A stretch of DNA of 64,000 nucleotides from Squalus acanthias (lineage: Eukaryota), in contig CM059432.1 in assembly GCA_030390025.1 (NCBI GenBank), forward strand, positions 8,184,001 through 8,248,000, read 5' to 3'. This document shows, piece after piece, positions 40,690 through 60,302 of the stretch. Each line of letters begins with the position of its first letter. Within the stretch, counting starts at the first letter, position 1. The notes below the pieces were generated by a model. It did not search any database and had not been told where the DNA came from. It saw only the letters and a list, made by a program, of their open reading frames with translations. A program made the position numbers and the translations under genes.

Positions 40690-41850
40690 CTAGAAGCGGC
40701 TTGCTATTAGTCGTTGACGGACGGCCCTTGCAGTTTGACCATTGTGGGCCGCCCTCCTGCCTTGGTGCTGCTGCTGATCATCGTCCTCGGCCTGTTCCTC
40801 CTCTTCCTCCTCCTCCTCTTGTGGTGCTGCAAGGCCTGGTGGCATTGGCTGCGTCCTGAGGATTGCCATGTTGTGCAACATGCAGCACACCACTACGAAT
40901 TTGGAAACTTGCTCAGGCGAGTACTGCAGGGCTCCTCCGGAATGGTCCAGACAGCGGAATCGTTGTTTGAGCACGCCGATTGTGCGCTCAATAATGTTCC
41001 TCGTTGCTTGTTGGCTTTCCTGGTACCGCAGCTCAGCAGGGGTGTTTGGCGCACGGAGCGGTGTCATCAGCCAGGTGCTCAATGCGTACCCCTTGTCCCC
41101 CAGAAGCCAACCAACTGGCTGATGCGGTGCCTCGAAAATTTCTGCCACAGTACTCTGGCGCAGGATGAAAGCATCGTGGCAGCTGCCCGGATAGTGGGCA
41201 TTGACAGCGAGAATCACCTGTCTGTGGTCACAGACCAACTGCACATTCAAGGAATGGAACCCCTTTCTGTTCCGGAACTCCTCTGCATTCTCTCGTGGAG
41301 CACGCAAAGCCACATGCGTGCAGTCAATGGCGCCCTGCACCATGGGGAAGCCCGCTACCCTCGCAAAGCCCATAGCACGGTCATGCTGCTTGTCTGGGGT
41401 CATAGGGAAGGAGATGAAGTCTCGTCTCCTTGTGAAGAGGGCATTGGTGACCTGCCGGATGCAGCGATGCACCGCAAACTGGGAGATATTGGCGAGGTCC
41501 CCAACAGCAGCTTGGAATGAGCCAGTGGCGTAGAAGTTCAAAGCCACTGTGACCTTCACTGCCACCGACAGAGACGTCCTGGACCTCAGCTGAGGCTGCA
41601 GATCTGGCTGCAGCAGGTGGCAGAGCTCAGTGACCACCTCCTTGCTGAATCGCAGCCTTCGCAAACACAGCTCCTCGGACATGTGGATGTAGGAGAGCTG
41701 TTCACGATATACCCTGGGAGGGTAAGCTCTCCTGTACATGCGCCTGATGGGCCTCCTCCGTCTGGCCATCATTGCCACTCTCTGTCTGCGTCTCACTCTC
41801 CTCCGATTGAGCTGGAGCAGGACGACGCCCCCAATCATTGCAGCCCCCAT
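40690..41850 (-). CDS. HARBI1-like DDE transposase, 386 aa
   Basis: GAIDCTH, HDAFIL, LLGDKGY, IERTIGVLKQRFRCL, CCMLHN, acidic tail, RQRLIASRF. Confidence 0.93.
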   Translation of the reverse strand: MGAAMIGGVVLLQLNRRRVRRRQRVAMMARRRRPIRRMYRRAYPPRVYREQLSYIHMSEELCLRRLRFSKEVVTELCHLLQPDLQPQLRSRTSLSVAVKVTVALNFYATGSFQAAVGDLANISQFAVHRCIRQVTNALFTRRRDFISFPMTPDKQHDRAMGFARVAGFPMVQGAIDCTHVALRAPRENAEEFRNRKGFHSLNVQLVCDHRQVILAVNAHYPGSCHDAFILRQSTVAEIFEAPHQPVGWLLGDKGYALSTWLMTPLRAPNTPAELRYQESQQATRNIIERTIGVLKQRFRCLDHSGGALQYSPEQVSKFVVVCCMLHNMAILRTQPMPPGLAAPQEEEEEEEEQAEDDDQQQHQGRRAAHNGQTARAVRQRLIASRF

Positions 41851-42514
41851 ATTCTCTTTGCCAGAAAAGTAATGAGGTACAGCAACGAAAGTAGCAGCAA
41901 AGTTAGGATGAACTAGGCAAAACTACCTCACAAAGCGTTGAGTCAATGTAGAAGTCTCTCTCTCTCTCTCTCCGAATCTCTCTCTCTCTCTCAGAACGAG
42001 TGGTGCATAAATGTCGACCACAGAAAAAGACAGGAAGAGGCCCCCTTTAAATAGCGCCCCCCCCAGCCCCACACCGATTGATAACGTTCCAGTCTTCCGG
42101 TCGTTGGAAGCGCCAGGCGGTAAGGCAGGGGGCGCCACTCAATTTCCGCTCCGGGGCGCCCCAAGGGCGTTGCACCACGGAATGACGTCACAATCTGCGT
42201 GCGCAGGTGGTCGCAGCGGTAAGTTTTAGCGCCGCCGCACAATCTCAAGTTAAGTTCTCGAGCGGCGCAAACAGCGCTGCGCCCGGGCGTTAGCGCCTTA
42301 ACGCCCCATTAGCGCCCATTTAAGGCGCTAACGGGAGGCGCAACCAACTGAATTTTTACCCCTATAGGTTTAAATCTCACTCTGTAGACTTTAGCAGAAA
42401 AAATCTAGGCCGACACTCCGAGTGCAGTGCTGAGGGAGTGCTGCACTGTCGGAGGTGCCGTCTTTTGGATGAGACGTTAAACCGAGGCCCTGTCTGCTCT
42501 CTCTCAAGTGGATG

Positions 42515-44149
42515 TGTAAGGGGTGACCTGTGGCTCTGTGCTTAGCCTGGGTGCTAGTGCGGGGTTAGGCCCTGTTGCCTGCTCTGGTCTCCAGCCAGCC
42601 TGGTAACACTAGACACCTGTGAGTGGTTCGACCCACTCGCCCTTACGGTTCTGACACTGGACTTAGGTGCGAGAGCAATAATGCAGAGAAGACTCAGGTA
42701 GACCCGGTTGAATAGTGCGAAATGGAAAATCTTTATTGCATATTATTCAAGATTACGAGATACATGTCATAAGCACAGATTAACGACAGTACAATCTTAC
42801 ACACAGTTATGAAACTAATTTTAGGGAAACGAGGAGCGCACGACACATCGTAAAAGGGGATACACATTATAATTATCCTTAAAACTTAAACCCTCCCCTA
42901 TTAATACCTGTCCTAATCTAGATTTGTAGGATCGAGACTCATGCTCACCACTCGTGATAACTCGGAGAATTCCAAAACTCTGCTCGGATGTTTTTACCGC
43001 AGCACCTGACTATCCACGTGTTGATCAGGGGTCTCTGTACCCCACTTGTTTACTCGTTTCTGCTCCGGCTAGCAGGCTAGACCGTCTGCTGTCATGAAGA
43101 TCTGTGTTGTCCTCGGAGTTCTGATACTACTCAAAAAAGAGTCTTCCTGTGCCCTACACCGGTTCGGTAGAACTCGAAGAAGGATCTTCCTGGGCCAGTT
43201 GTGGAGTAGCCGATAAAATTCAAAGAAGTGTTTATTCGACTTACAGGCGCGGTCGGGGCTTACTGACCGTGGCGATGCGTATTGTTGTCTTCTTCTCTTC
43301 TCATCTCATCTCATCTCATCTCATCTCCTCTCGGGCCTTCGGTTCCAACACCGTTTACTGACTCCTCGGGATGGTGCGCCCGCCTCCAGGCCTCACAGCC
43401 CAGTTCTCCACAGATCTTCGCGGCAAGCCACGAGGTTGATCCTAGCGGATCAGAGTCCAGAGCTGTCAGGCAAGAGAATAAAAGTTCAGCAGTCTTCCAG
43501 CGAGTCAGAGCAGCAAGAGAAAGATGGACGATTGTACTTTACAGTTATAGTGCTGTAATTCCTCTTTTCCCGCCCAATCTTAATGTCTATCTTTTGTCAG
43601 GTTTTTGGCGCTCAAACTTCTTGTATGGGGTGATCTCAGTCTTTAATGGGTTTCGGTGATACTTGTAACTGTCTGAGTACCCGTTAATATTTCTCCCATT
43701 GTGGAACCGGCTAGTAGTCTCCCTGGAGGGGTTTTGGGGCTTCCAAATGCTTACTGTGAGTACCCGCAAACGGCTCTCTCATCGTAGAGTCATGGGGATT
43801 TTGCATATTAATGTCTTTGGATGGGTCCTTGATCGCTCAGTACAATAGCCCTTGTTTGCACCTGGGAGACCGATTTCAGTATTCATGTTTAAAGTGTAAA
43901 CCCATCGCGTCTTGTCATTATCTCATCATGTTGGATCTTTTCGATCTTGCACAAATGTTTATTGGAAACGCCATCTTGTCTGCCTACTGAAAGTCTAGAA
44001 CTTTCTGCCACGAGGCGTGGTGGCCATTTTACAGGCTGTTTGTGTCCGTTTTGAAACCTGACAGCATTCTGCTGAAATAAAGCTGTTTATACGAAACTTT
44101 ATGTCTCCTTCTTATTTTTATAAAATCGCATAATTTTGGGAATTCTACA
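42515..44149 (-). repeat. 3' LTR (1635 bp)
   Basis: Direct repeat of 50167-51800 with roughly 20-25 differences by eye. Minus-strand AATAAA at 42732-42737 and an internal (TCTCA)n tract. Confidence 0.95.
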
Positions 44150-44161
44150 GTCCCTCCTGTT
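44150..44161 (-). promoter_or_regulatory. Polypurine tract
   Basis: AACAGGAGGGAC immediately precedes the TGTAG start of the 3' LTR on the minus strand. Confidence 0.75.
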
Positions 44162-44594
44162 GATGCGAATAACTCCGCTTATCGTATCAAAAACATTGTG
44201 GTGAGCAATATTATCTCGATTCTCCATATCTAAAATTCCCATAACTTAAAACTATCTAGGGTCTCCGTGTCGTCCTTATTTCCCAGGAAAACTACATTCT
44301 TATAACACCATAGGCAGCATTTGCCTTTAACTTACACCGCGTGTATTTCCTTCCAGGTGTAACCAGGCCGATGCCTCTCGCACCACCTGCATATGCATAT
44401 TTTTTTATTCAAGGAAAAAGAAAAACAAAAACAACCAAACAATCATATTCAACAACACCAAATCAAAATAATCAAAACCAACTCTTAAATATGTAGAGTT
44501 CCAAACTTAATTACAGTTTCTGAGAAAAATCACGATCGATTACAACAATTCCGAGGCGCACGTGGAAAAACTGGAGTGACGCCATTTTGTCTGT

Positions 44595-46946
44595 TTACGT
44601 GGTGCTTTCATCGTGCACGCGCACGTAACGTTCTCGCCACTCTCCCGTGTTTTCGTTCTTGGTGAGGCGTTTACCTCTCTTACAATGCACGACCAATAAG
44701 TATATCACAATAAACACTTGGCATATAACTAAAATGTGGGAGGCTATTCTAATCCAGGAAGGCACTTCAATGTTGGTGAACAGATCCCACCACGGTGGAA
44801 TTCCTATGTCTAGAATTTCTGTCCCTATCTCGACAGTCTTTTGTTCTAGGGTGTAAAAATGTTTTTGCGATACCGCGACGGCTTTCAAAAGCTTGGTGGG
44901 GTGTTCAGGGAGAGGGGGAATGAGGTATCCGAAATGCGCGACGAATCGCTGCAAGTCGGTGAAGTTCTCTTTTACTGTAAGATGAACAGTGGATGGTTCA
45001 GGGATCGGGACAATTCGCTGTTGTGCCACTTGAACTTCCGCCCTGGGTTTAAAGCAGAAACTGCTGTCACTCACCGGACACCGGCTACGGTTTCCATGCT
45101 GGTAGTGTTGCGCTGCAGTGGTAACACAATATGTTCCACCCCCGATGTATGCTACCTGCGGAGGCACATGATCTTGTGCCATTGCCTCCATGGTGCAATT
45201 CATGGGCTTGGCGCCAGCCGTTCTGAACCCGCACTGTGGTGTTAAAAAGGCATTCAAGTGCTGGGGACACAGTATTATGTGTGCTCCCCGGCCACGACAA
45301 CCAGAGAGATCTGTACCTGTCATCGTTTGCTCCCAGCGTATGACGTAAGATGGAACCGCTGCATAGCGAATGTGGGCTCCCCCCTGAATGACACCAATGT
45401 TCTCTACCCGATACACCGGGGCAGGCTTTGCTGTGTCGCCCAAAACCGGTATACGTAATACTATACCCATGATGGTGTGGTTTGATCGTCCGCAGTCCAC
45501 GGGGACTGGGTATGCTTCTGAAGCTAGCCTGAGCTGGCACGGGCTTAATGCGTTCTGAAAAGGGTGGAGCGCCTGCAGGTGTTTGTTACTTATCCAGGAC
45601 GGGACCAAACCTTGTTTTAAATCCTCCAAATTACTGCGGCCCTCGCCCAGTAACCACGCCCCGTAAAGCACGCACACCTCATTCTGCGCAGCCTGATCGG
45701 ACGCATTACGATCTTCCCTGATCAGGGCATTTACCGTGCGCGCATGTTTCTCTAGTTCAGCTATTATTTCCTTTAAGTGTAGCGTCATGGCCTGGTCCTC
45801 ATGTAACCCAGACCCAACCATCTTATTTTCATCTGTGAGAATGTTCTTCAATTGTGTTTTTAAGCCATTAATCTGGGTCTGCAGCTCCACACTGTCTAGA
45901 GCGTTGACCACAGATGTACCTGTATTGAAAGCAGTGAACATGTCGTTCACAACACCCCTTCTTTGTCTCCCCACCTGACCCAAAACTTCATGTGGTGCGG
46001 TGTACAAACTTGTTTTATCAATTTCCGCGAAATCGAACTCATAAAATTGCCTAAACATCTTGGTCAACAGGATCTGATATAACTGTTCCGTCTCTTTGGG
46101 GCACCACTCCGGCAACCGCACCTCGGTGAGGTTTAAAATCACTGAGGCCACCGCGTAATGTACCCCCTGAAATAGTATCTGGTCTGTAGGGACCAATACC
46201 AAACCATTCCCGGGTCCCTTACTGGTTTTTGGGCACCCTTCTTCCTTAGCTAGAACCACCGGAATCGTGGGCGGGGCCTTGCGTGGGCGCGTAATGAGTT
46301 CAGTGGCATTTACCGGGATCGGAGAGTATGGAGCTCCGCACCCCCTGGTGCTCGCATCCCACCTCATCCCCTGCCCGTTATCCTGCCACTGATTGATGAA
46401 AAATATGGAGATGCCTTTGGGGCAAACGTGCTTTGACTCCCACATACATACATAAATTCCCTCATCCGGTTCCCACCATTTGTCCCAACAGACTCTCACT
46501 TGTCCGTTTGTCCCCGTAATTGTCCGATGGGTATTATTACCCAGTCGCTCCCACTCGACCGAAGAGTTCCTCATGTTTTTGCTCAGCTTTCGCAGCCACC
46601 ACCATCGGCTCAATGGGACATTCCCATTACAAGTCAAACAAATCCGTTTGCCGACGGTGACGCTGACTCTGGGTGCGATGATCCTCACTTTGGGGCACAT
46701 TAAAGAAGTCTCTTTGTAGGCAAAACCCGATGTACTGGAATACTCAGTGGAATTCGTTCCCAGCCATCCTGGCCACCTTCCCTTGTGGAAATAGGTGGTG
46801 GTATCCTTAGCCTCTCGCCTTCCGGTCCCATCCATCGCGATGGGGGCCATGTCCCCGGAGCATCCAAACACCACGACATCCTTGGTGCGGCCTCGATAGG
46901 CCAGTCCACATCCGATTGCCGCGAGCACTACTAGAATCCGTTCCAT
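44595..46946 (-). CDS. Envelope-like type I glycoprotein (ORF open from 47105; probable start at 46946)
   Basis: Signal peptide MERILVVLAAIGCGLA, Ig-like domain, furin site RQRR (45957-45968), putative fusion peptide and heptad repeat, Cys-rich region, N-glycosylation sequons, TM IASHILVICQVFIVIYLLVV and a short tail. Confidence 0.88.
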   Translation of the reverse strand: MERILVVLAAIGCGLAYRGRTKDVVVFGCSGDMAPIAMDGTGRREAKDTTTYFHKGRWPGWLGTNSTEYSSTSGFAYKETSLMCPKVRIIAPRVSVTVGKRICLTCNGNVPLSRWWWLRKLSKNMRNSSVEWERLGNNTHRTITGTNGQVRVCWDKWWEPDEGIYVCMWESKHVCPKGISIFFINQWQDNGQGMRWDASTRGCGAPYSPIPVNATELITRPRKAPPTIPVVLAKEEGCPKTSKGPGNGLVLVPTDQILFQGVHYAVASVILNLTEVRLPEWCPKETEQLYQILLTKMFRQFYEFDFAEIDKTSLYTAPHEVLGQVGRQRRGVVNDMFTAFNTGTSVVNALDSVELQTQINGLKTQLKNILTDENKMVGSGLHEDQAMTLHLKEIIAELEKHARTVNALIREDRNASDQAAQNEVCVLYGAWLLGEGRSNLEDLKQGLVPSWISNKHLQALHPFQNALSPCQLRLASEAYPVPVDCGRSNHTIMGIVLRIPVLGDTAKPAPVYRVENIGVIQGGAHIRYAAVPSYVIRWEQTMTGTDLSGCRGRGAHIILCPQHLNAFLTPQCGFRTAGAKPMNCTMEAMAQDHVPPQVAYIGGGTYCVTTAAQHYQHGNRSRCPVSDSSFCFKPRAEVQVAQQRIVPIPEPSTVHLTVKENFTDLQRFVAHFGYLIPPLPEHPTKLLKAVAVSQKHFYTLEQKTVEIGTEILDIGIPPWWDLFTNIEVPSWIRIASHILVICQVFIVIYLLVVHCKRGKRLTKNENTGEWRERYVRVHDESTT

Positions 46947-47242
46947 CCTTCCTTGGTTCCTGTGATCAGATAGAATGAGGTAGCCAGCCTCCCAAGAGTC
47001 TCTGGCTTTTGTGAAGGGTGAGCGGGTCCCCTGACCTCGCCTCACGTAAGAAGACATGTGCGCTGGATAGACTTTAACTATTCCTATCTCTAAAACTCCC
47101 ATCATTTTACCATTTTCTGTTAAAAACCTTAAACTACAAACTTAACCTGATTTAAGAACTATAAACTTGAACTTACAAAACTTATCAACTTATCACTTAT
47201 CTTAATAACTGTACAGTGCCGCCCGTTCCCAGGGCGGCCTAC

Positions 47243-48355
47243 TCAAATTCTGCGGTCGCTGCCGCAGGCTTCTCCCAACGGTGGGAGGGCATTGACCCCT
47301 CCCTTTGATCTGCCGCAGCCTGTTGCTGCTGCGCTGTGACTGGGCTCTCCCTGGGCTGCCTTAGCCCTGGACCTACGCTTAGGGACATACGGGGGACTTA
47401 CCCACATCTTTCTGGGCTGGGGTTTCCGACTTGACCTACGGGGAACTACCGGGGGCAGGAACTCCAGGACTGACGGACCGGGTTCCGAGACTTCCACCGT
47501 GGCGACCTGTGGTCCCACCACAGTCGCTGGCTCCGCCTCCCCTGACTCCGCCTCCCTGAACTCGGGATCTGCAGCTTGTGGCACCGCCCTACTTGGCCCA
47601 GTAGGCGGCCCTTCACTCGCAGTCCCTACCTCCCTCGAGGGCAGGACGTTCAAGGCGGGCGGCTTGGGCTCTGAGGCTTCCATCGCCACGCCCTGTGGTC
47701 CCACCACAGCGGCTGGCTCTGCCTCCCCTAGCTCCGCCCCCCTGCGTTCGGGACCAGCAGCTTCGGCCTCCACCCTGTGTGGATCTCTATCTGCAGCCCC
47801 TGTCTCCCCTACACCTGAATCGGGGGCGACCCTTTCGTCCTCCGATTCCAGCTCCTCTTCGCTTGCGTCACTATCTTGGTCGAGCTCCTCGAACTCTTCC
47901 TCATCTGACTCCCAACCCAAATAAAGGATCCTACATTTTGCTAGGATGTCCTCTCCCCTGATGCAAGCTGCTTTGCCTGCCTGTGTGCCCTGTGGCCCTA
48001 CCCGGGGCTGCGAGTCCCCACTCGCAGGTTTGGCCCCTGTGGTTGGCCCTTGTGCACCCGGCTTATACAGTTTGCACTGGTTAAAATCCTCATACTCCCT
48101 GCTTCTGGCTACCCTGTAGGCTGCCTTTATCGCTCCAAGCTGCCCTTCCAGCACGTCTAACTTTCCCATTAAGCGGGCGTTCTCCTCCCGCAGGGCCTGC
48201 TCTCTAAGCTGCCCTTCTAGCCCGTCTACTTTCCCTATTAAACGGGCGTTCTCCTCCCGCAAGGCCTGCTCTTCTAACCTGGCCTCCCTACAGGAGACCC
48301 CCTCCTGTGTGTGTCTTTTAAAGGGACACAGGTAGGCAGGCTGCGTGGGCTCTAG
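47243..48355 (-). CDS. ORF2: coiled-coil plus acidic/Pro-rich protein, in frame with gag after a single UGA
   Basis: The frame is open from the codon after the gag stop (48355) to 47243. No PR, RT, RNase H or IN catalytic motifs. Confidence 0.7.
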   Translation of the reverse strand, partial: LEPTQPAYLCPFKRHTQEGVSCREARLEEQALREENARLIGKVDGLEGQLREQALREENARLMGKLDVLEGQLGAIKAAYRVARSREYEDFNQCKLYKPGAQGPTTGAKPASGDSQPRVGPQGTQAGKAACIRGEDILAKCRILYLGWESDEEEFEELDQDSDASEEELESEDERVAPDSGVGETGAADRDPHRVEAEAAGPERRGAELGEAEPAAVVGPQGVAMEASEPKPPALNVLPSREVGTASEGPPTGPSRAVPQAADPEFREAESGEAEPATVVGPQVATVEVSEPGPSVLEFLPPVVPRRSSRKPQPRKMWVSPPYVPKRRSRAKAAQGEPSHSAAATGCGRSKGGVNALPPLGEACGSDRRI

Positions 48356-50162
48356 TCATTGGGTACCGGTGGACGGGGCTGCGGCATCTGCGGGGCCGGT
48401 AGCGACTGCCACCCTTCCCTGCGAAATCATGAGGGTGCGCATGGCTCCCAACATTGATTCGATCGCATCGGGATGGATAGGTGCACCAGCTCCCCTATCA
48501 GAAACAGGCGCCTGGGCTCGGACTGCGGGATTTTTATCCCTGGACTCCTTCCAAGGATTCCTGCAGTTCTTGCGCCAGTGCCCTGTCTTTCCGCATCCGA
48601 AACAAGCATTACTGGCCTGTGGGACGCGATTTCCCTCCTGATGCCACTCCTTTTGAGCCGGGGCTGTGGGCCGCGCCTCATGCACCTTTCCCTTAAGGGG
48701 ACGTGCTCCCGCACTCCTGGTATTACGGTACCCTACCGTGAGTCGATTTAGGACCGACTCCTCTGTAGTGGCAGGGTTAGTGGGATCAAACCACGCTTTG
48801 GCCTGCTCCCTGACGGCTGGCAAACTGTTGGCTACCACACACCTGAGCCAATGAGTTAAACCGACACCGTCTAGGCGGTGACGCGCTGGTGCGCCTGGGC
48901 AGCTACGCTGGTATACTGGCCACAGCCTGTCGGCGAAAACCTTCGGGGGTTCTCCCTCCATCTGCACTGTTTGTGCCAATCTAACGAACGGACCTTCATC
49001 GTCCGCGCCCAACACTTCCAGGACCTCGTCCCTCAATTCCCCATAGGTATTATTTCCCCTCTTGCTCTCGTCTGAGAGACACTGAAGGATCGAGCTGTCT
49101 AATGAGAACAACAGCATTTTTGCTTTTTCCCCATCGTCGCAGCCGTTAATGGCTGCGGTTTGCTCTACCTCCCTGAAATGTACGGAAGGGTCGTCTGACT
49201 CGGACAGCTTCCGTACGTGACTGATCATAGCCCTCAGCTGGTGTGAGCTGTGAGGCAACACAAGCTGGTTGAGGAGATCCCCCTCTGCCCCACCGTCTCT
49301 GTTCGGGCCCCTTTTGATACCCGTGACCGGACACAACGGTCCCGGCTTCACTTCTACCTCGGGGGGCTCTTTCTCTACTTCTACCACTTCCTTCCTCACC
49401 CAGGTTGCCGAATAGCTGGGTGGCGCGGAGGGCACAGTGGCAAATACCTCCTCTGCTTTGTTCGGTGGGGATTTCTGAAATTCCCCATCCACCAGCGGCT
49501 GGTGTGCTGACGGGCTGATAAGGCACACCATGCCGTGCGCTTTATTCAGGGCCTCTTTAAGGTTCCCTATCTCTCTTTGGCAGACGCTGTGATCGGCCCC
49601 CTCATGTTTATCCTCGAGGGCCATCTTATATGCCGCCCTAACCCCCGTTAAGCTCTCTTCCTGGGCTTTTATTTGGGCAGCTAGGCGGGCACATCGTTCC
49701 TTTATTCTGCCCTCATTTAACTTTGCCTCAGTGACCTGGCACTCGAGGTAATCTATTTTCGCCTCATGGTGGTTGGCGACTAACTGACGTTCTTGATGCA
49801 ACGCATTTAAAGACGCGATGAGCTGCTGCCCCCCCCGCGACCTTCTCGTCCATTTCCACCTCTAAACCCTTGATCTGAGCTGCCTGCGCTATGATGACCT
49901 GGTCCGAAAGCTGGACTTGTCTTTTATAGCACATCAGCCAGTCCGCTTTCTCTACTGTTCTTTTATGTTCCTTGCTACCTGTCCACCTCATGGCTGCCTC
50001 TAGTGGACACTTATCCACCAGCAGGTCACTTATCCATTTCTTAGTCAAATTCACTTTTCCAAACACATAATCTGCTATTCTCTCTTCCATAACATTTCGC
50101 CCATTCATACCAGGGTCTAACACATTATTTTCTCGCTGCCAGTGTCCCTTCGTGGTCGCCAT
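48356..50162 (-). CDS. Gag (~600 aa), one frameshift in a G8 run at 49829-49836
   Basis: Coiled coil, PSAPPSY, capsid-like region with MHR-like QMEGEPPKVFADRL, and zinc knuckle CFGCGKTGHWRKNC (48563-48604). Removing one G joins ORFs 49764-50162 and 48356-49801. Confidence 0.85.
50144..50161 (-). promoter_or_regulatory. Primer-binding site, tRNA-Arg
   Basis: TGGCGACCACGAAGGGAC, 5 nt after the 5' LTR. Complementary to the 3' 18 nt of a vertebrate tRNA-Arg(UCG) (...GUCCCUUCGUGGUCGCCA), recalled rather than searched. Confidence 0.85.
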
Positions 50163-50166
50163 TATC

Positions 50167-51800
50167 TGTAAGGGGTGACCTGTGGCTCTGTGCTTAGCCT
50201 GGGTGCTAGTGCGGGGTTAGGCCCTGTTGCCTGCTCTGGTCTCCAGCCAGCCTGGTAACACTAGACACCTGTGAATGGTTCGACCCACTCGCCCTTACGG
50301 TTCTGACACTGGACTTAGGTGCGAGAGCAATAATGCAGAGAAGACTCAGGTAGACCCGGTTGAATAGTGCGAAATGGAAAATCTTTATTGCATATTATTC
50401 AAGATTATGAGATACATGTCATAAGCACAGATTAACGATAGTACAATCTTACACACAGTTAGGAAACTAATTTTAGGGAAACGAGGAGCGCACGACACAT
50501 CGTAAAAGGGGACACACATTATAATTATCCTTAAAACTTAAACCCTCCCCTATTAATACCTGTCCTAATCTAGATTTGTATGATCGAGACTCATGCTCAC
50601 CACTCGTGATAACTCGGAGAATTCCGAAACTCTGCTCGGATGTTTTTACCGCAGCACCTGACTATCCACGTGTTGATCAGGGGTCTCTGTACCCCACTTG
50701 TTTACTCGTTTCTGCTCCGGCTAGCAAGCTGGACCGTCTGCTGTCATGAAGATCTGTGTTGTCCTCGGAGTTCTGATACTACTCAAAAAAGAGTCTTCCT
50801 GTGCCCTACATCGGTTCGATAGAACTCGAAGAAGGGTCTTCCTGGGCCAGTTGTGGAGTAGCCGATAGAATTCAAAGAAGTGTTTATTCGACTTACAGGC
50901 GCGGTCGGGGCTTACTGACCGTGGCGATGCGTATTGTCGTCTTCTTCTCTTCTCATCTCATCTCATCTCATCTCATCTCCTCTCGGGCCTTCGGTTCCAA
51001 CACCGTTTACCGACTCCTCGGGATGGTGCGCCCGCCTCCAGGCCTCACAGCCCAGTTCTCCACAGATCTTCGCGGCAAGCCACGAGGTTGATCCTAGCGG
51101 ATCAGAGTCCAGTGCCGTCAGGCAAGAGAATAAAAGTTCAGCAGTCTTCCAGCGAGTCAGAGCAGCAAGAGAAAGATGGACGGTTGTACTTTACAGTTAT
51201 AGTGCTGTAATTCCTCTTTTCCCGCCCAATCTTAATGTCTATCTTTTGTCAGGTTTTTGGCGCTCAAACTTCTTGTATGGGGTGATCTCAGTCTTTAATG
51301 GGTTTCGGTGATACTTGTAACTGTCTGAGTACCCGTTAATATTTCTCCCATTGTGGAACCGGCTAGTAGTCTCCCTGGAGGGGTTTTGGGGCTTCCAAAT
51401 GCTTACTGTGAGTACCCGCAAACGGCTCTCTCATCGTAGAGTCATGGGGATTTTGCATATTAATGTCTTTGGATGGGTCCTTGATCGCTCAGTACAATAG
51501 CCCTTGTTTGCACCTGGGAGACCGATTTCAGTATTCATGTTTAAAGTGTAAACCCATCGCGTCTTGTCATTATCTCATCATGTTGGATCTTTTCGATCTT
51601 GCACAAATGTTTATTGGAACGCCATCTTGTCTGCCTACTGAAAGTCTAGAACTTTCTGCCACGAGGCGTGGTGGCCATTTTACAGGCTGTTTGTGTCGTT
51701 TTGAAACCTGACAGCATTCTGCTGAAATAAAGCTGTTTATACGAAACTTTATGTCTCCTTCTTATTTTTATAAAATCGCGATAATTTTGCGAATTCTACA
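50167..51800 (-). repeat. 5' LTR (1634 bp)
   Basis: Direct repeat of 42515-44149, with the PBS adjacent. Confidence 0.95.
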
Positions 51801-52089
51801 GATGTCAAAGATTCCGTGGCACTATTTCGAAGAAGAGTAGGGGAGTTATCCCCGGTGTCCTGGCCAATATTTATCCCTCAATCAACATCACTAAAACAGA
51901 TTATCCAGTCATTATCATATTGCTGTTTGTGGGAGCTTGCTGTGTGCAAATTGGCTGCCGCGTTTCCTACATTACAACAGTGACTACACTTCAAAAAGTA
52001 CTTCATTGGCTGTAAAGCGCTTTGGGATGTCCTGAGGTCGTGAAAGGCGCTATAGAAATGCAAGTCTTTTTTTATCCATACCTTCTTTG

Positions 52090-52630: not shown

Positions 52631-53092
52631 GAAACTGCGCCCCCATCTCCAAACTCTCGTTCCTCTCCAACGCTATTGAACGTGTTGACACTTTCCGAAT
52701 CGATGCCTGTCTTCCCTGCAACTTTATATCTGAGTCTCTCTAAGTCAGATTTCTGCTCCTGCCACAGCAATAAAATGGCTCTTATCAAAGTCACGGATTA
52801 GTTCCTATGTCACTGTGGTGCGCTATCCCTCCTCATCCTTCTCGACCTGTCTGCAGCCTTTGACTCACTAGAGCGCACCATCCCACTCCAACGCCTCTCC
52901 TCCATTCTCCAGCTCAGTGGGACTGCTCTGCCCTCTTCTTCCTCATCTAAATACTGGCCCTTGTATGAACCCCAGACACAGGGCCAGTTTCCACATGTAA
53001 GCTGACAACGCCAGCGATGCCTCTCCAGTACCTCTCTATCGCTCGAGCACTCAAAAGCAAACTAAAGCCCCTTTGAAGGGAACAGATTGGAA

Positions 53093-56000
53093 GGGAGTGT
53101 CGGCGAGAGAGGGGAGTGTCGGAGGGAGAGGGGAGCGAAGGAGGGAGAGGGGTGTGTCGGAGAGAGAGGGGAGTGTAGGAGGGAGAGGGGAGTGTCGGAG
53201 AGAGAGGAGAGTGTCGGAGGGAGAGGGGAGTGTCGGAGGGAGAGGGGAGTGTCGGAGGGAGAGGGGAGTGTCGAGGGAGAGGGGAGTGTCGGAGAGAGAG
53301 GGGAGTGTCGAAGGGAGAGGGGAGTGTCGGAGGGAGAGGGGAGTGTCGGAGGGAGAGGGGAGTGTCGGGGGGAGAGGGGAGTGTCGGAGGGAGAGGGGAG
53401 TGTCGGAGGAAGAGGGGAGTGTCGGAGGGAGAGGGGAGTGTCGGAGAGAGAGGGGAGTGTCGGAGGGAGAGGGGAGTGTTGGAGGGGGAGGGGAGTGTAG
53501 GAGGGAGAGGGGAATGTCGGAGGGAGAGGGGAGTGTCGGGGGGAGAGGGGAGTGTCGGGGGGAGAGGGGAGTGTCGGAGGGAGAGGGGAGTGTCGGAGAG
53601 AGTGGAGTGTCGGAGGGAGAGGGGAGTGTCGGAGGGAGAGGGGAGTGTCGGAGGGAGAGGGGAGTGTCGGAGGGAGAAAGGGAATGTCGGAGGGAGAGGG
53701 GAATGTCGGAGGGAGAGGGGAGTGTCGGAGAGAGAGGGGAGTGTCGGAGAGAGAGGGGAGTGTCGGAGAGAGAGGGGAGTGTCGGAGAGAGAGGGGAGTA
53801 TCGGAGGGAGAGGGGAGTGTCGGAGGGGGAGGGGAGTGTCGGAGGAAGAGGGGAGTGTCGGAGGGAGAGGGGAGTGTCGGAGAGAGAGGGGAGTGTCGGA
53901 GGGAGAGGGGAATGTCGGAGGGAGAGGGGAATGTCGGAGAGAGAGGGGAGTGTCGGGGGGAGAGGGGAGTGTCGGAGAGAGAGGGGAGTGTCGGAGAGAG
54001 AGGGGAGCGTCGGAGTGAGAGAGGAGTGTCGGAGGGAGAGGGGAGTGTAGGAGAGGGAGAGGGGAGTGTCGGAGGGAGAGGGGAGTGTTGGAGAGAGAGG
54101 GGAGTGTAGGAGGGAGAGGGGAGTGTCGGAGAGAGAGGAGAGTGTCGGAGGGAGAGGGGAGTGTCGGAGAGAGAGGGGAGTGTCGGAGGGAGAGGGGAGT
54201 GTCGGAGGGAGAGGGGAGTGTCGGAGGGAGAGGGGAGTGTCGGGGGGAGAGGGGAGTATCGGAGGGAGAGGGGAGTGTCGGAGGGAGAGGGGAGTGTCGG
54301 AGGGAGAGGGGAGTGTCGGAGAGAGAGGGGAGTGTCGGAGGGAGAGGGGAGTGTCGGAGGGGGAGGGGAGTGTAGGAGGGAGAGGGGAATGTCGGAGGGA
54401 GAGGGGAGTGTCGGGGGGAGAGGGGAGTGTCGGGGGAGAGGGGAGTGTCGGGGGAGAGGGGAGTGTCGTTGAGAGAGGGGAGTGTCGGAGGGAGAGGGGA
54501 ATGTCGGAGAGAGGGGAGTGTCGGAGGGAGAGGGGAGTGTCGGAGGGAGAGGGGAGTGTCGGAGGGAGAGGGGAGTGTCGGAGGGAGAAAGGAAATGTCG
54601 GAGGGAGAGGGGAATGTCGGAGGGAGAGGGGAGTGTCGGAGAGAGAGGGGAGTGTCGGAGAGAGAGGGGAGTGTCGGAGTGAGAGGGGAGTGTCGGAGAG
54701 AGAGGGGAGTGTCGGAGAGAGAGGGGAGTGTCGGAGAGAGAGGGGAGTATCGGAGGGAGAGCGGAGTGTCGGAGGGAGAGGGGAGTGTCGGAGGGAGAGG
54801 GGAGTGTCGGAGGGAGAGGGGAGTGTAGGAGAGAGAGGGGAGTGTCGGAGGGAGAGGGGAATATCGGAGGGAGAGGGGAATGTCGGAGAGAGAGGGGAGT
54901 GTCGGGGGGAGAGGGGAGTGTCGGGGGGAGAGGGGAGTGTCGGAGGGAGAGGGGAGTGTCGGAGAGAGAGGGGAGTGTCGGAGAGAGAGGGGAGTGTCGG
55001 AGAGAGAGGGGAGTATCGGAGGGAGAGGGGAGTGTCGGAGGGAGAGGGGAGTGTCGGAGGGAGAGGGGAGTGTCGGAGGGAGAGGGGAGTGTCGGAGAGA
55101 GAGCGGAGTGTCGGAGGGAGAGGGGAATGTCGGAGGGAGAGGGGAATGTCGGAGAGAGAGGGGAGTGTCGGGGGGAGAGGGGAGTGTCGAGGGGAGAGGG
55201 GAGTGTCGGAGGGAGAGCTGAGTGTCGGAGGGAGAGGGGAGTGTCGGAGGGAGAGGGGAGTGTCGGAGGGAGAGGGGAGTGTCGGAGGGAGAGGGGAGTG
55301 TCGGAGGAAGAGGGGAGTGTCGGAGGGAGAGGGGAGCGTCGGAGAGAGAGGGGAGTGTCGGAGGGAGAGGGGAGTGTCGGAGGGGGAGGGGAGTGTAGGA
55401 GGGAGAGGGGAATGTCGGAGGGAGAGGGGAGTGTCGGGGGGAGAGGGGAATGTCGGAGGGAGAGGGGAGTGTCGGAGGGAGAGCTGAGTGTCGGAGAGAG
55501 TGGGGAGTGTCGGAGGGAGAGGGGAATGTTGGAGAGAGAGGGGAGTGTCGGAGGGAGAGGGGAGTGTCGGAGGGAGAGCTGAGTGTCGGAGGGAGAGGGG
55601 AATGTCGGAGGGAGAGGAGAATGTCGGAGGGAGAGGGGAATGTCGGAGAGAGAGGGGAGTGTCGGAGAGAGAGGGGAGTGTTGGGGGGAGAGCTGAGTGT
55701 CGGAGGGAGAGGGGAGTGTCGGAGGGAGAGGGGAGTGTCGGAGGGAGAGAGGAGTGTCGGAGTGAGAGGGGAGTGTAGGAGAGGGAGAGGGGAGTGTCGG
55801 AGGGAGAGGGGAGTGTCGGAGGGAGAGCTGAGTGTCGGAGGGAGAGGGGAGTGTCGGAGGGAGAGGGGAGTGTCGGAGGGAGAGCTGAGTGTCGGAGGGA
55901 GAGGGGAATGTCGGAGGGAGAGGGGAGTGTCGGAGGGAGAGCTGAGTGTCAGAGAGAGTGGGGAGTGTCGGAGGGAGAGGGGAATGTTGGAGAGAGAGGG

Positions 56001-56927
56001 GAGTGTCGGAGGGAGAGGGGAGTGTCGGAGGGAGAGCTGAGTGTCGGAGGGAGAGGGGAATGTCGGAGGGAGAGGAGAATGTCGGAGGGAGAGGGGAATG
56101 TCGGAGAGAGAGGGGAGTGTCGGAGAGAGAGGGGAGTGTTGGGGGGAGAGCTGAGTGTCGGAGGGAGAGGGGAGTGTCGGAGGGAGAGAGGAGTGTCGGA
56201 GTGAGAGGGGAGTGTAGGAGAGGGAGAGGGGAGTGTCGGAGGGAGAGGGGAGTGTCGGAGGGAGAGAGGAGTGTCGGAGGGAGAGGGGAATGTCGGAGGG
56301 AGAGAGGAGTGTCGGAGGGAGAGGGGAGTGTCGAAGGGAGAGGGGAGTGTCGGGGGGATTGCTGAGTGTTGGAGGGAGAGGGGAGTGTCGGAGGGAGAGG
56401 GGAGTGTCGGGGGGAGAGCTGAGTGTTGGAGGGAGAGGGGAGTGTCGGAGGGAGAGAGGAGTGTCGGAGGGAGAGGGGAGTGTCAGAGGGAGAGGGGAGT
56501 GTCGGAGGGAGAGAGGAGTGTCGGAGGGAGAGGGCAGTGTCGGAGGGAGAGCTGAGTGTCGGATGGAGAGGGGAGTGTCGGAGAGAGAGGGGAGTGTCGG
56601 GGGGAGAGCTGAGTGTCGGAGGGAGAGGGGAGTGTCGGGGGGAGAGCTGAGTGTCGGAGGGAGAGCGGAGTGTCGGAGGGAGAGGGGAGTGTCGGAGGGA
56701 GAGCTGAGTGTCGGAGGGAGAGGGGAGTGTCGGAGGGAGAGGGGAGTGTCGGGGGGAGAGCTGAGTGTCGGAGGGAGAGGGGAGTGTCGGAGAGAGAGGG
56801 GAATGTCGGAGAGAGAGGGGAGTGTCGGAGGGAGAGGGGAGTGTCGGGGGGAGAGCTGAGTGTCGGAGGGAGAGGGGAGTGTCGGAGGGAGAGAGGAGTG
56901 TCGGAGGGAGAGGGGAGTGTCGGAGGG
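53093..56927. repeat. 19-bp purine-rich minisatellite, ~200 units
   Basis: Unit GGAGGGAGAGGGGAGTGTC with point variants. Confidence 0.97.
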
Positions 56928-56979
56928 AAGCTGTTTGAGAGTGGAGTGCCTGCCATCTCTCACCACCTGTCCTTTTCAG

Positions 56980-57026
56980 GGCAATCTCATTGAGAAAGTT
57001 TGTAGCGGTTTAAAATTTGCAGAGAG
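56980..57026 (+). other. Candidate short host exon (47 nt)
   Basis: CTGTCCTTTTCAG acceptor and GAG|GTAAGT consensus donor. Open as GNLIEKVCSGLKFAE. Confidence 0.35.
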
Positions 57027-57625: not shown

Positions 57626-58719
57626 AACTTTGCTGTTCTTTGCCAGGGCCGGAAGAATTATATCCGAGGCTAATAAAAGAAGCAAGGGAGGAAATTGCGA
57701 AGGCTCTGACCATCATTTTTCAATCCTCTCTGGCTACAAGAGTGGTCATGATGCGGAGATGGACTGGGGTGGACAAAATTGAGAGGTCGCACAACACCAG
57801 GTTATAGTCCAACAGTTTTATTTGAAATCACAAGCTTTCGGAGCTATCGATTGCCCCTTCCTCAGGTGAAGTAAATAGATACAGAATCGCCAAAGCATAT
57901 ATAGATAGAGAACAAAGCATGTGTACCTTACAATTGCAGACCACTAAATTAAATCATCCTGACTATCTGCCGAGGTGTGATAAAGTTAATCAGGTCAGCC
58001 AGGAAGGTACCACATCAAAGACATAGCAAGATACAACTGAGACAATGAGGTGTAGTCGCAGGGGTTCTAACGTGTCAAAAGCTGCCGTCTGTATGTAAAA
58101 CGAAAAGCTTTAAAATTTTTACTTTTTTACTGGGAAAATTTTTACTTTTTTACTGGGAATCACATCTGTGAACAAGCCAACGACGACTCGAGTCCGGATC
58201 ACGTCATGTATCGTGACATAAACCCAAGATCCCGGTTGAGACCGTCTTCATGAGTGCGGAACTTGGCTATCAGTTTCTGCTCGATGATTTTGCGTTGTCG
58301 TGTGTTTCTAAGGTTGCCTTGGAGAACGCTTACCCGCAGATCCGAGGCTGAATGTCCTTGACTGCTGAAGTGTTCCCCGACTGGGAGGTAACAATCCTGC
58401 CTGGCGATTGTTGCGCGGTGCTCGTTCATACGTTGTCTCAGTGTCTGCATGGTCTCGCCGATGTACCATGCCGCGGTGCATTCTTTCCTGCAACGTATGA
58501 GGTAGACAACGTTGGCCGAGTCACATGAGTATGTACCATGTACCTGGTGGTTAGTGTCCTCACGTGTGATGGTGGTATCTGTGTTGATGATCTGGCATGT
58601 CTTGCAGAGTTTGCCGTGGCAGGGTTGTGTGGTGTCGTGGTCGCTGTTATCCTGAAAGCTGGGTAATTTGCTGCGAACGATGGTACTTCTGAGGTTATCT
58701 GTGTTGATGATTTGGCACC

Positions 58720-59828
58720 TCCAGCCAACGCTGTACACCAGATACATCGACGACATTTTCTTCCTTTGGACCCATGGCGAAGGATCACTGAAAAGACTAC
58801 ACGATAACATAAACAAGTTCCATCCCACCATCAAACTCACCATGGACTACTCCTCAGAATCGGTTTCATTCCTGGACACACGAATCTCCATCAAAGACGG
58901 ACACCTCAGCACTTCACGCTACCGCAAGCCCATGGACAACCTCACGATGCTCCACTTCTCCAGCTTCCACCCTAACCATGTTAAAGAAGCCATCCCCTAT
59001 GGACAAGCCCTGCGAATACACAGGATCTGCTCAGACGAGGAGGAACGCGATGGACACCTACGGACGCTGAAAAACGCCCTCGTAAGAACGGGATATGACG
59101 CTCGACTCATCGATCGACAGTTCCGACGGGCCACAGCGAAAAATCGCATAGACCTCCTCAGAAGGCAAACACGGGACACAACCAACAGGGTACCCTACGT
59201 CGTCCAGTACTTCCCCAGAGCGGAGAAACTACGCCATGTTCTTCGCAGCCTTCAACATGTCATCGATGACGACAAACACCTCGCTAAGGCCATCCCCACG
59301 CCTCCACTACTTGCCTTCAAACAGCCACCTAACCTCAGAAGTACCATCGTTCGCAGCAAATTACCCAGCTTTCAGGATAACAGCGACCACGACACCACAC
59401 AACCCTGCCACGGCAAACTCTGCAAGACCTGCCAGATCATCAACACAGATACCACCATCACACGTGAGGACACTAACCACCAGGTACATGGTACATACTC
59501 ATGTGACTCGGCCAACGTTGTCTACCTCATACGTTGCAGGAAAGAATGCACCGCGGCATGGTACATCGGCGAGACCATGCAGACACTGAGACAACGTATG
59601 AACGAGCACCGCGCAACAATCGCCAGGCAGGATTGTTACCTCCCAGTCGGGGAACACTTCAGCAGTCAAGGACATTCAGCCTCGGATCTGCGGGTAAGCG
59701 TTCTCCAAGGCAACCTTAGAAACACACGACAACGCAAAATCATCGAGCAGAAACTGATAGCCAAGTTCCGCACTCATGAAGACGGTCTCAACCGGGATCT
59801 TGGGTTTATGTCACGATACATGACGTGA
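58720..59828 (+). CDS. Penelope RT C-terminal part plus GIY-YIG endonuclease (5'-truncated)
   Basis: RYIDDIF, FLDT, YRKP, then NVVYLIRC...WYIGET...LRQRMNEH...EQKLI...GLN. Confidence 0.9.
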
Positions 59829-60154
59829 TCCGGACTCGAGTCGTCGTTGGCTTGTTCACAGATGTGATTCCCAGTAAAAAAGTAAAAATTTTCCCAGTAA
59901 AAAAGTAAAAATTTTAAAGCTTTTCGTTTTACATACAGACGGCAGCTTTTGACACGTTAGAACCCCTGCGACTACACCTCATTGTCTCAGTTGTATCTTG
60001 CTATGTCTTTGATGTGGTACCTTCTTGGCTGACCTGATTAACTTTATCACACCTCGGCAGATAGTCAGGATGATTTAATTTAGTGGTCTGCAATTGTAAG
60101 GTACACATGCTTTGTTCTCTATCTATATATGCTTTGGCGATTCTGTATCTATTT

Positions 60155-60200
60155 ACTTCACCTGAGGAAGGGGCAATCGATAGCTCCGAAAGCTTGTGAT
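60155..60200 (+). ncRNA. Putative minimal hammerhead ribozyme motif
   Basis: CTGAGGA-A-GGGGC-loop-GCTCC-GAAA-GCTT. Minus-strand copies at ~57830-57870 and ~24841-24876. Confidence 0.55.
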
Positions 60201-60302
60201 TTCAAATAAAACTGTTGGACTATAACCTGGTGTTGTGCGACCTCTCAATTTTGTACAAGAGTGGTGCCAGAGGATTGGAGAACTGCTAACGTTGTACCAT
60301 TG

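What the first reader, a model, noticed from the sequence alone, without database searches (positions are those of the whole stretch)
42515..51800. Young pol-less gag-ORF2-env LTR element: a candidate helper-dependent enveloped retroelement
Seen: two ~1.63-kb TG..CA LTRs roughly 98.5% identical by eye, a 4-bp GATG TSD, an 18-nt tRNA-Arg PBS and a PPT. Gag is near-intact, the env-like ORF is intact, and a third ORF is open. The 6-kb interior shows no protease, RT (YxDD), RNase H or integrase motif. Established: a TSD with complete LTRs is the product of normal reverse transcription and integration. Inference: if the element inserted in this form, its enzymes came in trans from a pol-bearing helper while it kept its own particle and entry genes. 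The pol slot holds an open 370-codon ORF rather than a deletion scar, which suggests a stable non-autonomous lineage.
Basis: partly seen in the sequence, partly recalled or inferred. Interest (0 to 1): 0.88.

Follow-up and report, generated by a model that had tools for sequence, protein, structure and literature searches.

The report
Enzyme-less shark retrovirus riding on helpers
This is one copy of a roughly thousand-copy retrovirus lineage in a shark-type genome that lost its copying enzymes but kept coat and envelope genes, so it must borrow the enzymes from near-identical complete relatives, with which it keeps swapping genes; its supposed new gene is mostly the leftover ends of the lost enzyme gene.

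Summary
The anatomy is confirmed: 98.7% identical 1.63-kb LTRs, GATG TSD, exact tRNA-Arg(TCG) PBS, PPT, gag (one frameshift), open 370-codon ORF2, open env, no PR/RT/RH/IN. Helper dependence is supported: the genome holds 1,016 exact matches to the pol-less junction and 1,396 to the pol-bearing one; both forms share LTR, PBS, gag, env and 4-bp TSDs, and they interleave in gag and env trees (one clade rejected), i.e. they recombine. Its frame is kept (38 of 41 junctions) but its residues show no purifying selection; env's selection signal is mostly shared with the helper. The helper RT lacks the lokiretrovirus signature and lies near snakehead retrovirus, yet Env is paramyxovirus-F-like and matches walleye retrovirus Env. 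Closest kind: IAP 1Δ1, cattle ERVK D-type, recKoRV. The scan found this pol-less form before on other DNA of this genome (e1-8036056). New variant of a known kind.

The parts
50167..51800 (-). 5' LTR (1,634 nt, TG..CA)
42515..44149 (-). 3' LTR (1,635 nt), 98.7% identical to the 5' LTR
42511..42514 (.). Target-site duplication GATG, left copy
51801..51804 (.). Target-site duplication GATG, right copy
50144..50161 (-). 18-nt primer-binding site, exact complement of host tRNA-Arg(TCG) 3' end; 5 nt from the LTR
48356..50162 (-). gag: N-terminal coiled coil, helical capsid-like middle, one CCHC knuckle (48,560-48,607); broken by one frameshift in a homopolymer run near 49,830; start codon uncertain (50,162, 50,108 or 50,090)
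48352..48358 (-). gag stop in leaky context TGA-CTAG; identical position and context separate gag from pol in the helper
   Evidence: context from bioRxiv 2021.04.18.440353
48324..48355 (-). ORF2 part 1: first 11 codons of pol (before the protease)
48083..48323 (-). ORF2 part 2: 241-nt in-frame filler replacing about 3,620 nt of PR-RT-RH-IN; heptad protein with an internal 69-nt duplication; resembles the Gag coiled coil of this and of a sister family, no DNA donor found
47243..48082 (-). ORF2 part 3: last 279 codons of pol (end of the integrase SH3 strand plus a low-complexity acidic then basic tail), 94-97% identical in DNA to the helper
44595..46946 (-). env, 783 aa, open: signal-peptide-like start (by eye), weak Ig-like region, RQRR cleavage site (aa 327-330), fusion-peptide and heptad region, TM aa about 728-750; paramyxo/pneumovirus F-type fold; AG splice-acceptor-like site about 14 nt upstream (by eye)
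44150..44161 (-). Polypurine tract abutting the 3' LTR
42400..42514 (+). Left part of the host short interspersed repeat into which the element inserted (continues at 51,801-52,050)

Best explanation
The element is a member of a pol-deleted, helper-dependent sublineage of a large endogenous retrovirus family. Once, a recombination event replaced PR-RT-RNase H-IN (about 3.6 kb) with a 241-nt piece probably taken from a gag coiled-coil region, leaving the two ends of pol fused in frame (shown by sequence comparison). The shortened genome kept LTRs, PBS, PPT, gag and env, so it is transcribed and packaged like the parent, and is reverse transcribed and integrated by Pol made from pol-bearing copies in the same cell (inferred; the shared PBS, LTR ends and 4-bp TSD fit). 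Because both RNAs enter the same particles, template switching keeps exchanging gag, tail and env between the two forms (recombination shown; co-packaging as its cause inferred), which is the main reason the pol-less copies carry selected, helper-like gag and env. The leaky TGA-CTAG stop should give a minor Gag-ORF2 fusion in place of Gag-Pol (inferred). The ORF2 frame is preserved while its residues drift, so what is kept is most likely translation through the region or a length/frame requirement acting in cis, as described for IAP 1Δ1, not a new protein function.
For: Same organisation in many copies: 40 scored matches to the gag-ORF2-env stretch, 1,016 exact matches to the pol-less 5' junction against 1,396 to the pol-bearing one; 3 of 3 extra junction samples had filler plus tail in frame at 89-90% identity. 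Different exact 4-bp TSDs in 7 of 10 pol-less copies with both ends and 4 of 5 pol-bearing copies with both ends. Helper: 11 of 29 other top gag loci continue into a protease after the same stop; 18 of 20 loci picked by the IN/tail junction cover at least 0.8 of PR-IN; Pfam finds RVP, RVT_1, RT_RNaseH, RNase_H, Integrase_H2C2, rve in a 1,496-codon pol. ORF2 ends match pol ends. Recombination: pol-less and pol-bearing copies need 14, 15 and 12 label changes on gag, tail and env trees, 0 of 200 bootstrap trees with one clade; AU test rejects one clade (gag p 1.5e-7, env p 1e-75); three loci (two of them near-identical) are chimeras with full PR-IN followed by gag end, filler, tail and env. Frame: junction-to-junction distance is a multiple of three in 38 of 41 copies, in 7 length classes; 1 shared indel in ORF2 (in frame) against 28 in the spacer and 18 in the 3' UTR; no shared stop in filler or tail. 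TGA-CT kept in 39 of 39 copies with the context in view (29 CTAG, 9 CTGG, 1 CTAT).
Against: No amino-acid selection on ORF2: shared/singleton N:S ratio 0.92 (filler) and 1.12 (tail), both not significant; the helper's own tail shows none either (0.72, p 0.27). Noncoding control regions are AT-rich with homopolymers, so the indel contrast is inflated. Env's strong signal (0.27, p 2e-14) is mostly shared with helpers; variants private to pol-less copies give 0.62, p 0.13 for env and 0.49, p 0.03 for gag (38 helper rows only, so 'private' is overcalled). Gene conversion between integrated copies could also mix the two forms. Readthrough and co-packaging were not observed directly; a downstream stem-loop test was inconclusive. 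The window's own gag is frameshifted, and env was open in only 6 of 20 and gag in 10 of 26 scorable pol-less copies.
Confidence: 0.85

Rival explanations
1. Functional satellite: the Gag-ORF2 readthrough product is a real protein that gives the short genome an advantage (cis-preferential packaging or taking the Gag-Pol slot in the particle), and pol-less copies contribute their own Gag and Env, so the two forms divide labour.
For: Frame kept across 7 length classes and about 10% divergence; readthrough context kept; filler looks like a Gag coiled coil (score 67, 0 of 2,000 shuffles as high; 36% to a relative's Gag), a plausible oligomerisation module; ORF2 open in 21 of 28 scorable copies; private gag variants show some selection (p 0.03); a sister family has independently lost pol and also kept the stretch from the NQCKL motif onward; precedent of a cis-acting fusion in IAP 1Δ1 (PMC6466679).
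Against: No amino-acid constraint on filler or tail; no relative or fold found for the tail or the filler (best 0.87); in the sister family the remnant is not in one frame; private env variants not significantly selected.
Confidence: 0.25
2. Passive deletion derivative: ORF2 is open only because the deletion happened to be in frame and the tail is refreshed from helpers; gag and env are passengers that recombination keeps helper-like.
For: Neutral N:S in ORF2; most shared variants also in helpers; tail tree interleaved; duplication and deletion in GC-rich coding-derived DNA may favour multiples of three.
Against: Four separate length changes in the filler, which cannot be refreshed from helpers, are all in frame, while the out-of-frame class is three 1-nt losses not shared between copies.
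Confidence: 0.35
3. One-off rearrangement after insertion, or copies spread by segmental duplication or assembly artefact.
For: A few stretches are near-identical duplicates (L059/L060) and some lie on small contigs.
Against: About a thousand junction matches on many chromosomes, distinct TSDs, LTR pairs 0.2-1.2% apart within copies but 2-12% between copies.
Confidence: 0.02

Closest known systems
Mouse IAP 1Δ1 (PMC6466679, passages)
   Same: Non-autonomous internal-deletion subtype whose deletion leaves an open fusion ORF; mobilised in trans by full-length relatives; very successful.
   Different: 1Δ1 loses part of gag and has no env and needs Gag in trans; here gag and env are whole, only the enzymes are gone, a foreign filler sits in the gap and the fusion would be made by stop readthrough.
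Cattle ERVK[2-1-LTR] D-type, mouse ETn/MusD, koala recKoRV (PMC10924933, passages)
   Same: Central segment of a competent ERV swapped for a piece of another retroelement, flanks kept, trans-complementation, pervasive recombination between competent and defective forms.
   Different: Those forms have no intact gag/pro/pol/env ORFs (stated for D-type); here gag, env and the pol-slot frame stay open, and the pol-less form does not outnumber the helper (1,016 vs 1,396 exact junctions).
Zebrafish BHIKHARI Bik-1/Bik-2 (bioRxiv 2024.03.25.586437, passages)
   Same: Young fish LTR families with coiled-coil Gag and no pol, needing a partner.
   Different: Gag only, no env; lokiretrovirus-related; partner not identified for Bik-1. 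The sister family L140/L141 seen here (gag, pol remnants, no env) is closer to this pattern.
Snakehead retrovirus and SnRV-like ERVs (record L144; PMC2717909, PMC13517186, PMC12193657 passages; PMC4422223 part 1)
   Same: Best RT match among 18 viral records (44%); coiled-coil Gag with one zinc knuckle; gag-pol stop readthrough; PBS beginning TGGCGA; SnRV-like ERVs known in elephant shark.
   Different: Stop context TGA-CTAG rather than UAGGGC; no accessory ORFs seen; RT tree leaves the grouping unresolved; Env similarity only weak (domain E 0.003).
Lokiretrovirus / lokiortervirus (PMC7947760 main text parts 1-2 and supplement parts 8, 67, 68; PMC9040795 passages)
   Same: F-type Env with RxxR site, fusion peptide, coiled coil, TM; tether plus RNase H; coiled-coil region ahead of capsid.
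   Different: RT has LPQGFHNSP as in canonical retroviruses, whereas the Loki RT rows seen have PFG[YL]xN; Loki was found in 0 of 6 cartilaginous-fish genomes; Env here has an extra N-terminal region.
Epsilonretrovirus Env (WDSV, WEHV-1)
   Same: Env family profile aligns colinearly with the env of a 12,708-nt record (WDSV by length and Pol) at E 1.8e-11; fold search hits WEHV-1 and WDSV Env (E 2e-9, 6e-8).
   Different: No pairwise BLAST similarity; helper RT lies outside the gamma/epsilon clade (99/94).

Membership tests
Non-autonomous (helper-dependent) ERV sublineage | Lacks PR, RT, RNase H and IN | tested here: met
Non-autonomous (helper-dependent) ERV sublineage | Many copies with the same deletion at independent sites with their own TSDs | tested here: met
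Non-autonomous (helper-dependent) ERV sublineage | Pol-bearing partner sharing LTR ends, PBS, PPT and TSD length | tested here: met
Non-autonomous (helper-dependent) ERV sublineage | Co-packaging and mobilisation in trans shown directly | not testable with these tools
   only indirect: recombination and chimeras
Lokiretrovirus (lokiortervirus) | RT groups with Loki clade | tested here: not met
   By eye on the published alignment: helper RT has LPQGFHNSP, Loki rows PFG[YL]xN; about 76 identities to SnRV vs about 53 to Loki-Pma over about 148 core positions (hand count). No tree with Loki sequences could be built.
Lokiretrovirus (lokiortervirus) | Env related to paramyxo/pneumovirus F | tested here: met
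   but not exclusive to Loki
Lokiretrovirus (lokiortervirus) | Tether plus second RNase H | tested here: met
   (shared with canonical retroviruses)
Lokiretrovirus (lokiortervirus) | Integrase closest to CGIN1 | not tested
   no IN tree; 'NYNRIN-like' labels are automatic names and occur in several clades
SnRV-like canonical retroviruses | RT groups with SnRV | tested here: inconclusive
   best identity, same unresolved basal group with SnRV, Ovex1-like and frog ERVs, outside gamma/epsilon
SnRV-like canonical retroviruses | Coiled-coil Gag with one CCHC knuckle; gag-pol by stop readthrough | tested here: met
   (readthrough inferred from layout, not measured)
SnRV-like canonical retroviruses | Accessory ORFs and complex splicing | tested here: inconclusive
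   no accessory ORF between env and the 3' LTR; splicing not testable
Ty3/gypsy errantivirus with F-type Env | RT within Metaviridae; single RNase H | tested here: not met
   RT groups with retroviruses apart from Ty3/gypsy rows; dual RNase H

The most novel reading that the evidence does not exclude
This is a true enveloped satellite retrovirus fixed in a vertebrate germ line: a thousand-copy lineage that makes its own Gag and F-type Env, replaces Gag-Pol by a readthrough Gag-coiled-coil-tail protein that favours its own RNA, and is held in long-term balance with its helper by constant recombination; and its family shows that canonical (SnRV-like and walleye) fish retroviruses use a paramyxovirus-F-type Env thought to be peculiar to lokiretroviruses.
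Probability: 0.25. Interest if true: 0.8.

Novelty: new variant of a known kind. Interest (0 to 1): 0.52.

Why it matters
Defective ERVs that succeed usually drop env and often gag; one that drops only the enzymes, keeps an open pol-slot frame and sits at about 40% of a family of more than 2,400 junction-bearing copies is a natural record of helper/defective coexistence, with enough copies to measure recombination and selection directly. The side result may matter more: the Env family profile and fold link this Env to walleye retrovirus Env (and weakly to SnRV), while PMC9040795 states that canonical and lokiretrovirus Env share no detectable similarity and builds a two-origin model on that. 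If F-type Env is present in canonical fish retroviruses, that model needs another look. I found no paper saying so in three searches, but the library lacks most subscription journals.

Tried and rejected
Hidden divergent pol in the interior: none. ORF2 as the Loki 'smc' gene: rejected, smc lies 5' of gag in the supplement's header and ORF2 is pol-derived. Lokiretrovirus label: my first guess from Env, dropped after comparing RT rows. DNA donor of the filler: none in helper stretches, the window or the sister family; the genome search returned only family copies among 40 scored. ESM Atlas: no usable hit for filler (best 0.87) or tail. Readthrough stem-loop: a hairpin starting about 15 nt after the stop is predicted in window, helper and sister family, with one apparent compensatory change between families, but z-scores are -1.6 (pol-less mean), +0.8 (helper group, which includes at least one misfiled pol-less row) and 14 of 40 control windows reach -1.6 or lower: inconclusive. 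Gag fold from a single sequence: pLDDT 43, no match. Expression: no RNA holder listed; contigs of four runs of guessed type cover all 30 bins including the filler, which cannot show transcription. First junction counts (105 vs 249) used the more variable 3' junction and undercount both forms; 2 of 20 loci picked by the 'helper' pattern were not helpers. The stop-codon column used a wrong frame and was ignored. Rows dropped: L060 (duplicate of L059) from all counts; L059 and L063 (chimeras) but still present; L123 and L132 from helper sets. Samples are biased toward copies most like the window; a planned larger unbiased sample could not be fetched. EAV-HP as a pol-deleted gag-env precedent is recalled only; the one paper checked had no passage. 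Hart et al. 1996 on SnRV is not held. Supplements of bioRxiv papers were not seen.
Full report
Observation. The element spans 42,515-51,800 on the minus strand. Its LTRs are 1,634 and 1,635 nt, TG..CA, 98.7% identical (19 substitutions, 3 gaps), flanked by GATG on both sides; it splits a host short repeat that is whole elsewhere in the window. The 18-nt PBS is the exact complement of a tRNA-Arg(TCG) gene of this genome, and a short PPT abuts the 3' LTR. The 6,017-nt interior holds gag (two frames, one frameshift near 49,830, one CCHC knuckle), a 370-codon ORF2 and a 783-codon env, and no protease, RT, RNase H or integrase signature. The genome is 3.7 Gb; the nearest named proteins come from a skate and a sawshark, so the host is taken to be a cartilaginous fish.

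It is a family, not an accident. The gag-ORF2-env stretch had 40 scored matches at 90-100%. I fetched 39 of them whole; of 10 copies with both ends in view (window included) 7 have exact, all different, 4-bp TSDs, and their LTR pairs differ by 0.2-1.2%. The pol-less 5' junction occurs 1,016 times exactly, the pol-bearing one 1,396 times, controls 0; three junctions sampled outside the first set were filler plus tail in frame at 89-90% identity. LTR divergence of 1.2% gives about 2.6 My at a mammalian rate or about 26 My at the shark rate assumed in PMC4422223 (part 1 read), so 'young' is relative.

The helper exists. Of 29 other top gag loci, 11 continue after the same stop codon into a protease. 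Ten were fetched: 8 show gag-pol-env with the same LTR, PBS and env at 94-98%, and 4 of 5 with both ends found have 4-bp TSDs. One open pol of 1,496 codons carries protease, RT, tether, RNase H, integrase and an SH3 end. Of 20 further loci picked by the IN/tail junction, 18 cover at least 0.8 of PR-IN.

What ORF2 is. It starts directly after the gag stop, in the gag frame, without an ATG. Its first 11 codons are the start of pol, its last 279 the end of pol (from NQCKL, the last strand of the integrase SH3, through a low-complexity tail), and between them 241 nt replace about 3,620 nt. So it is a deletion scar with a filler. The filler has no DNA match in the helper, but its protein resembles the Gag coiled coil of this family (score 67; 0 of 2,000 shuffles) and of a sister family (32-36%): probably a captured gag piece, donor not found. 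The stop context is TGA-CTAG, reported as readthrough-prone (bioRxiv 2021.04.18.440353, passages; type II context in PMC13517186, passages); the helper has no other visible way to make Pol, and 39 of 39 pol-less copies with the context in view keep TGA-CT. A Gag-ORF2 fusion is therefore expected but not shown. A downstream hairpin test was inconclusive.

Selection. Comparing variants shared by two or more copies with singletons in 37 pol-less copies: env N:S 62/169 vs 263/194 (ratio 0.27, p 2e-14), gag 96/129 vs 177/115 (0.48, p 6e-5), filler 29/18 vs 28/16 (0.92), tail 69/36 vs 110/64 (1.12) (shifted frames gave no such deficit). ORF2's residues thus drift. Its frame does not: 38 of 41 junction distances are multiples of three, in 7 length classes, the other three being 1-nt losses; one shared indel in ORF2, in frame, against 28 and 18 in the two noncoding parts (with the caveat of their homopolymers). 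Against my first reading, the env signal is mostly inherited: 189 of 247 shared env variants also occur in helpers, and the private ones give 33/25 vs 243/115 (p 0.13); gag private variants 28/24 vs 149/62 (p 0.03).

Recombination. All pol-less copies carry the same filler, so they have one origin, yet they interleave with helpers on gag, tail and env trees (14, 15, 12 changes; shuffled means 19-20), and one clade is rejected. The window's gag is sister to a helper's (99/86) while its env groups with pol-less copies. Three loci are helper/pol-less chimeras and one has a shifted, still in-frame 3' junction. Template switching in particles holding both RNAs is the standard explanation (as argued for cattle ERVK, PMC10924933, passages); gene conversion is not excluded.

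Mechanism. Shown: loss of all enzymes, many independent insertions, a near-identical helper, exchange of genes between the forms, a kept frame. Inferred: Pol supplied in trans, co-packaging, readthrough, and a cis benefit of translating through the pol slot, for which IAP 1Δ1 is the precedent (PMC6466679, passages). I put helper dependence at 0.85; within it, a passive open frame (0.35) and a functional fusion protein (0.25) remain open beside a frame-only requirement.

What kind of retrovirus. The Env model (pLDDT 59; N-terminal 230 residues unresolved) matches paramyxo- and pneumovirus F (E 1e-11), as lokiretrovirus Env does (PMC7947760). But the helper RT has LPQGFHNSP, while the Loki rows of the published alignment have PFG[YL]xN, and by hand count it is closer to SnRV; Loki was reported in 0 of 6 cartilaginous fish. 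SnRV is the best RT match among 18 viral records (44%); the RT tree leaves helper, SnRV, Ovex1-like and frog sequences in an unresolved group outside gamma/epsilon and apart from Ty3/gypsy. I do not file it as a lokiretrovirus. A profile of 27 Env relatives aligns over some 550 positions with the env of a 12,708-nt record (WDSV by length) at E 1.8e-11, weakly with SnRV env, not with gamma-type env; 102 shuffled or reversed controls reached E 0.13 at best; the fold search independently lists WEHV-1 and WDSV Env, though plain BLAST sees nothing. PMC9040795 (passages) says canonical and Loki Env share no detectable similarity; three searches found no paper on F-type Env in walleye or snakehead retroviruses, and Viro3D section 7 does not name them.

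Earlier notes of the scan describe the same pol-less form on other DNA (e1-8036056), the Ig-like Env head several times, an SnRV-like reading of a provirus of this genome (e1-7789907, which led me to test SnRV) and two PBS types; I confirmed the first independently, saw only a weak Ig signal (Pfam E 0.16) and saw a second PBS type in a few copies.

Verdict. Real and well supported as a helper-dependent, env-keeping ERV sublineage; ORF2 is a patched pol remnant, not a new gene. New variant of a known kind; interest 0.52, carried by the scale, the recombination record, the kept frame and the Env link to walleye retroviruses.

Noticed in passing
L148:5962-9648 and L144:6131-9532 (viral records): Env of the WDSV-sized record aligns colinearly with this family's F-type Env profile (E 1.8e-11) and SnRV Env weakly; fold search also lists WEHV-1 and WDSV Env. 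F-type Env seems present in canonical fish retroviruses.
   Followed up: partly
L140-L143 (G000:C2076:85720-94900; G000:C6:36936200-36945316): A sister family (Gag about 45% identical) has independently lost most of pol and all of env: gag, TGA-CTAG, patches of protease and integrase, the stretch from NQCKL onward, then the LTR. At least 71 gag loci scored; only two were read.
   Followed up: partly
L059, L060, L063: Chimeric proviruses: whole PR-IN followed by a second gag end, filler, tail and env; sign of a template switch between helper and pol-less genomes.
   Followed up: partly
window 47,243-48,082 and P0054 residues about 1,220-1,496: The helper's Pol has a 280-residue low-complexity extension after integrase that frog relatives lack; no amino-acid selection seen in either form.
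   Followed up: partly
window 50,144-50,162: An ATG overlapping the PBS is in frame with gag; a few copies carry a different PBS after TGGCGACC (L048, L055, L068).
   Followed up: no
window about 46,450-46,700: Weak Ig-like match in the Env N-terminal region (Pfam Ig_3 E 0.16); not resolved in my model.
   Followed up: partly
window 40,690-41,922 (minus): Open 410-codon Harbinger/HARBI1-type DDE transposase ORF (DDE_Tnp_4 E 6e-38) about 600 nt from the provirus.
   Followed up: no
window 52,970-57,000: A 19-nt G-rich minisatellite of about 200 units with strong GC skew.
   Followed up: no
window 57,770-60,257: Perfect 928-nt inverted repeat with a 632-nt spacer: very recent foldback element or assembly artefact.
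   Followed up: no
P0010, P0002: Annotated gene models fuse pieces of this Env to a zinc-finger array (P0010) or to a Niban-like protein (P0002); probably mis-predictions, possibly exonisation.
   Followed up: no
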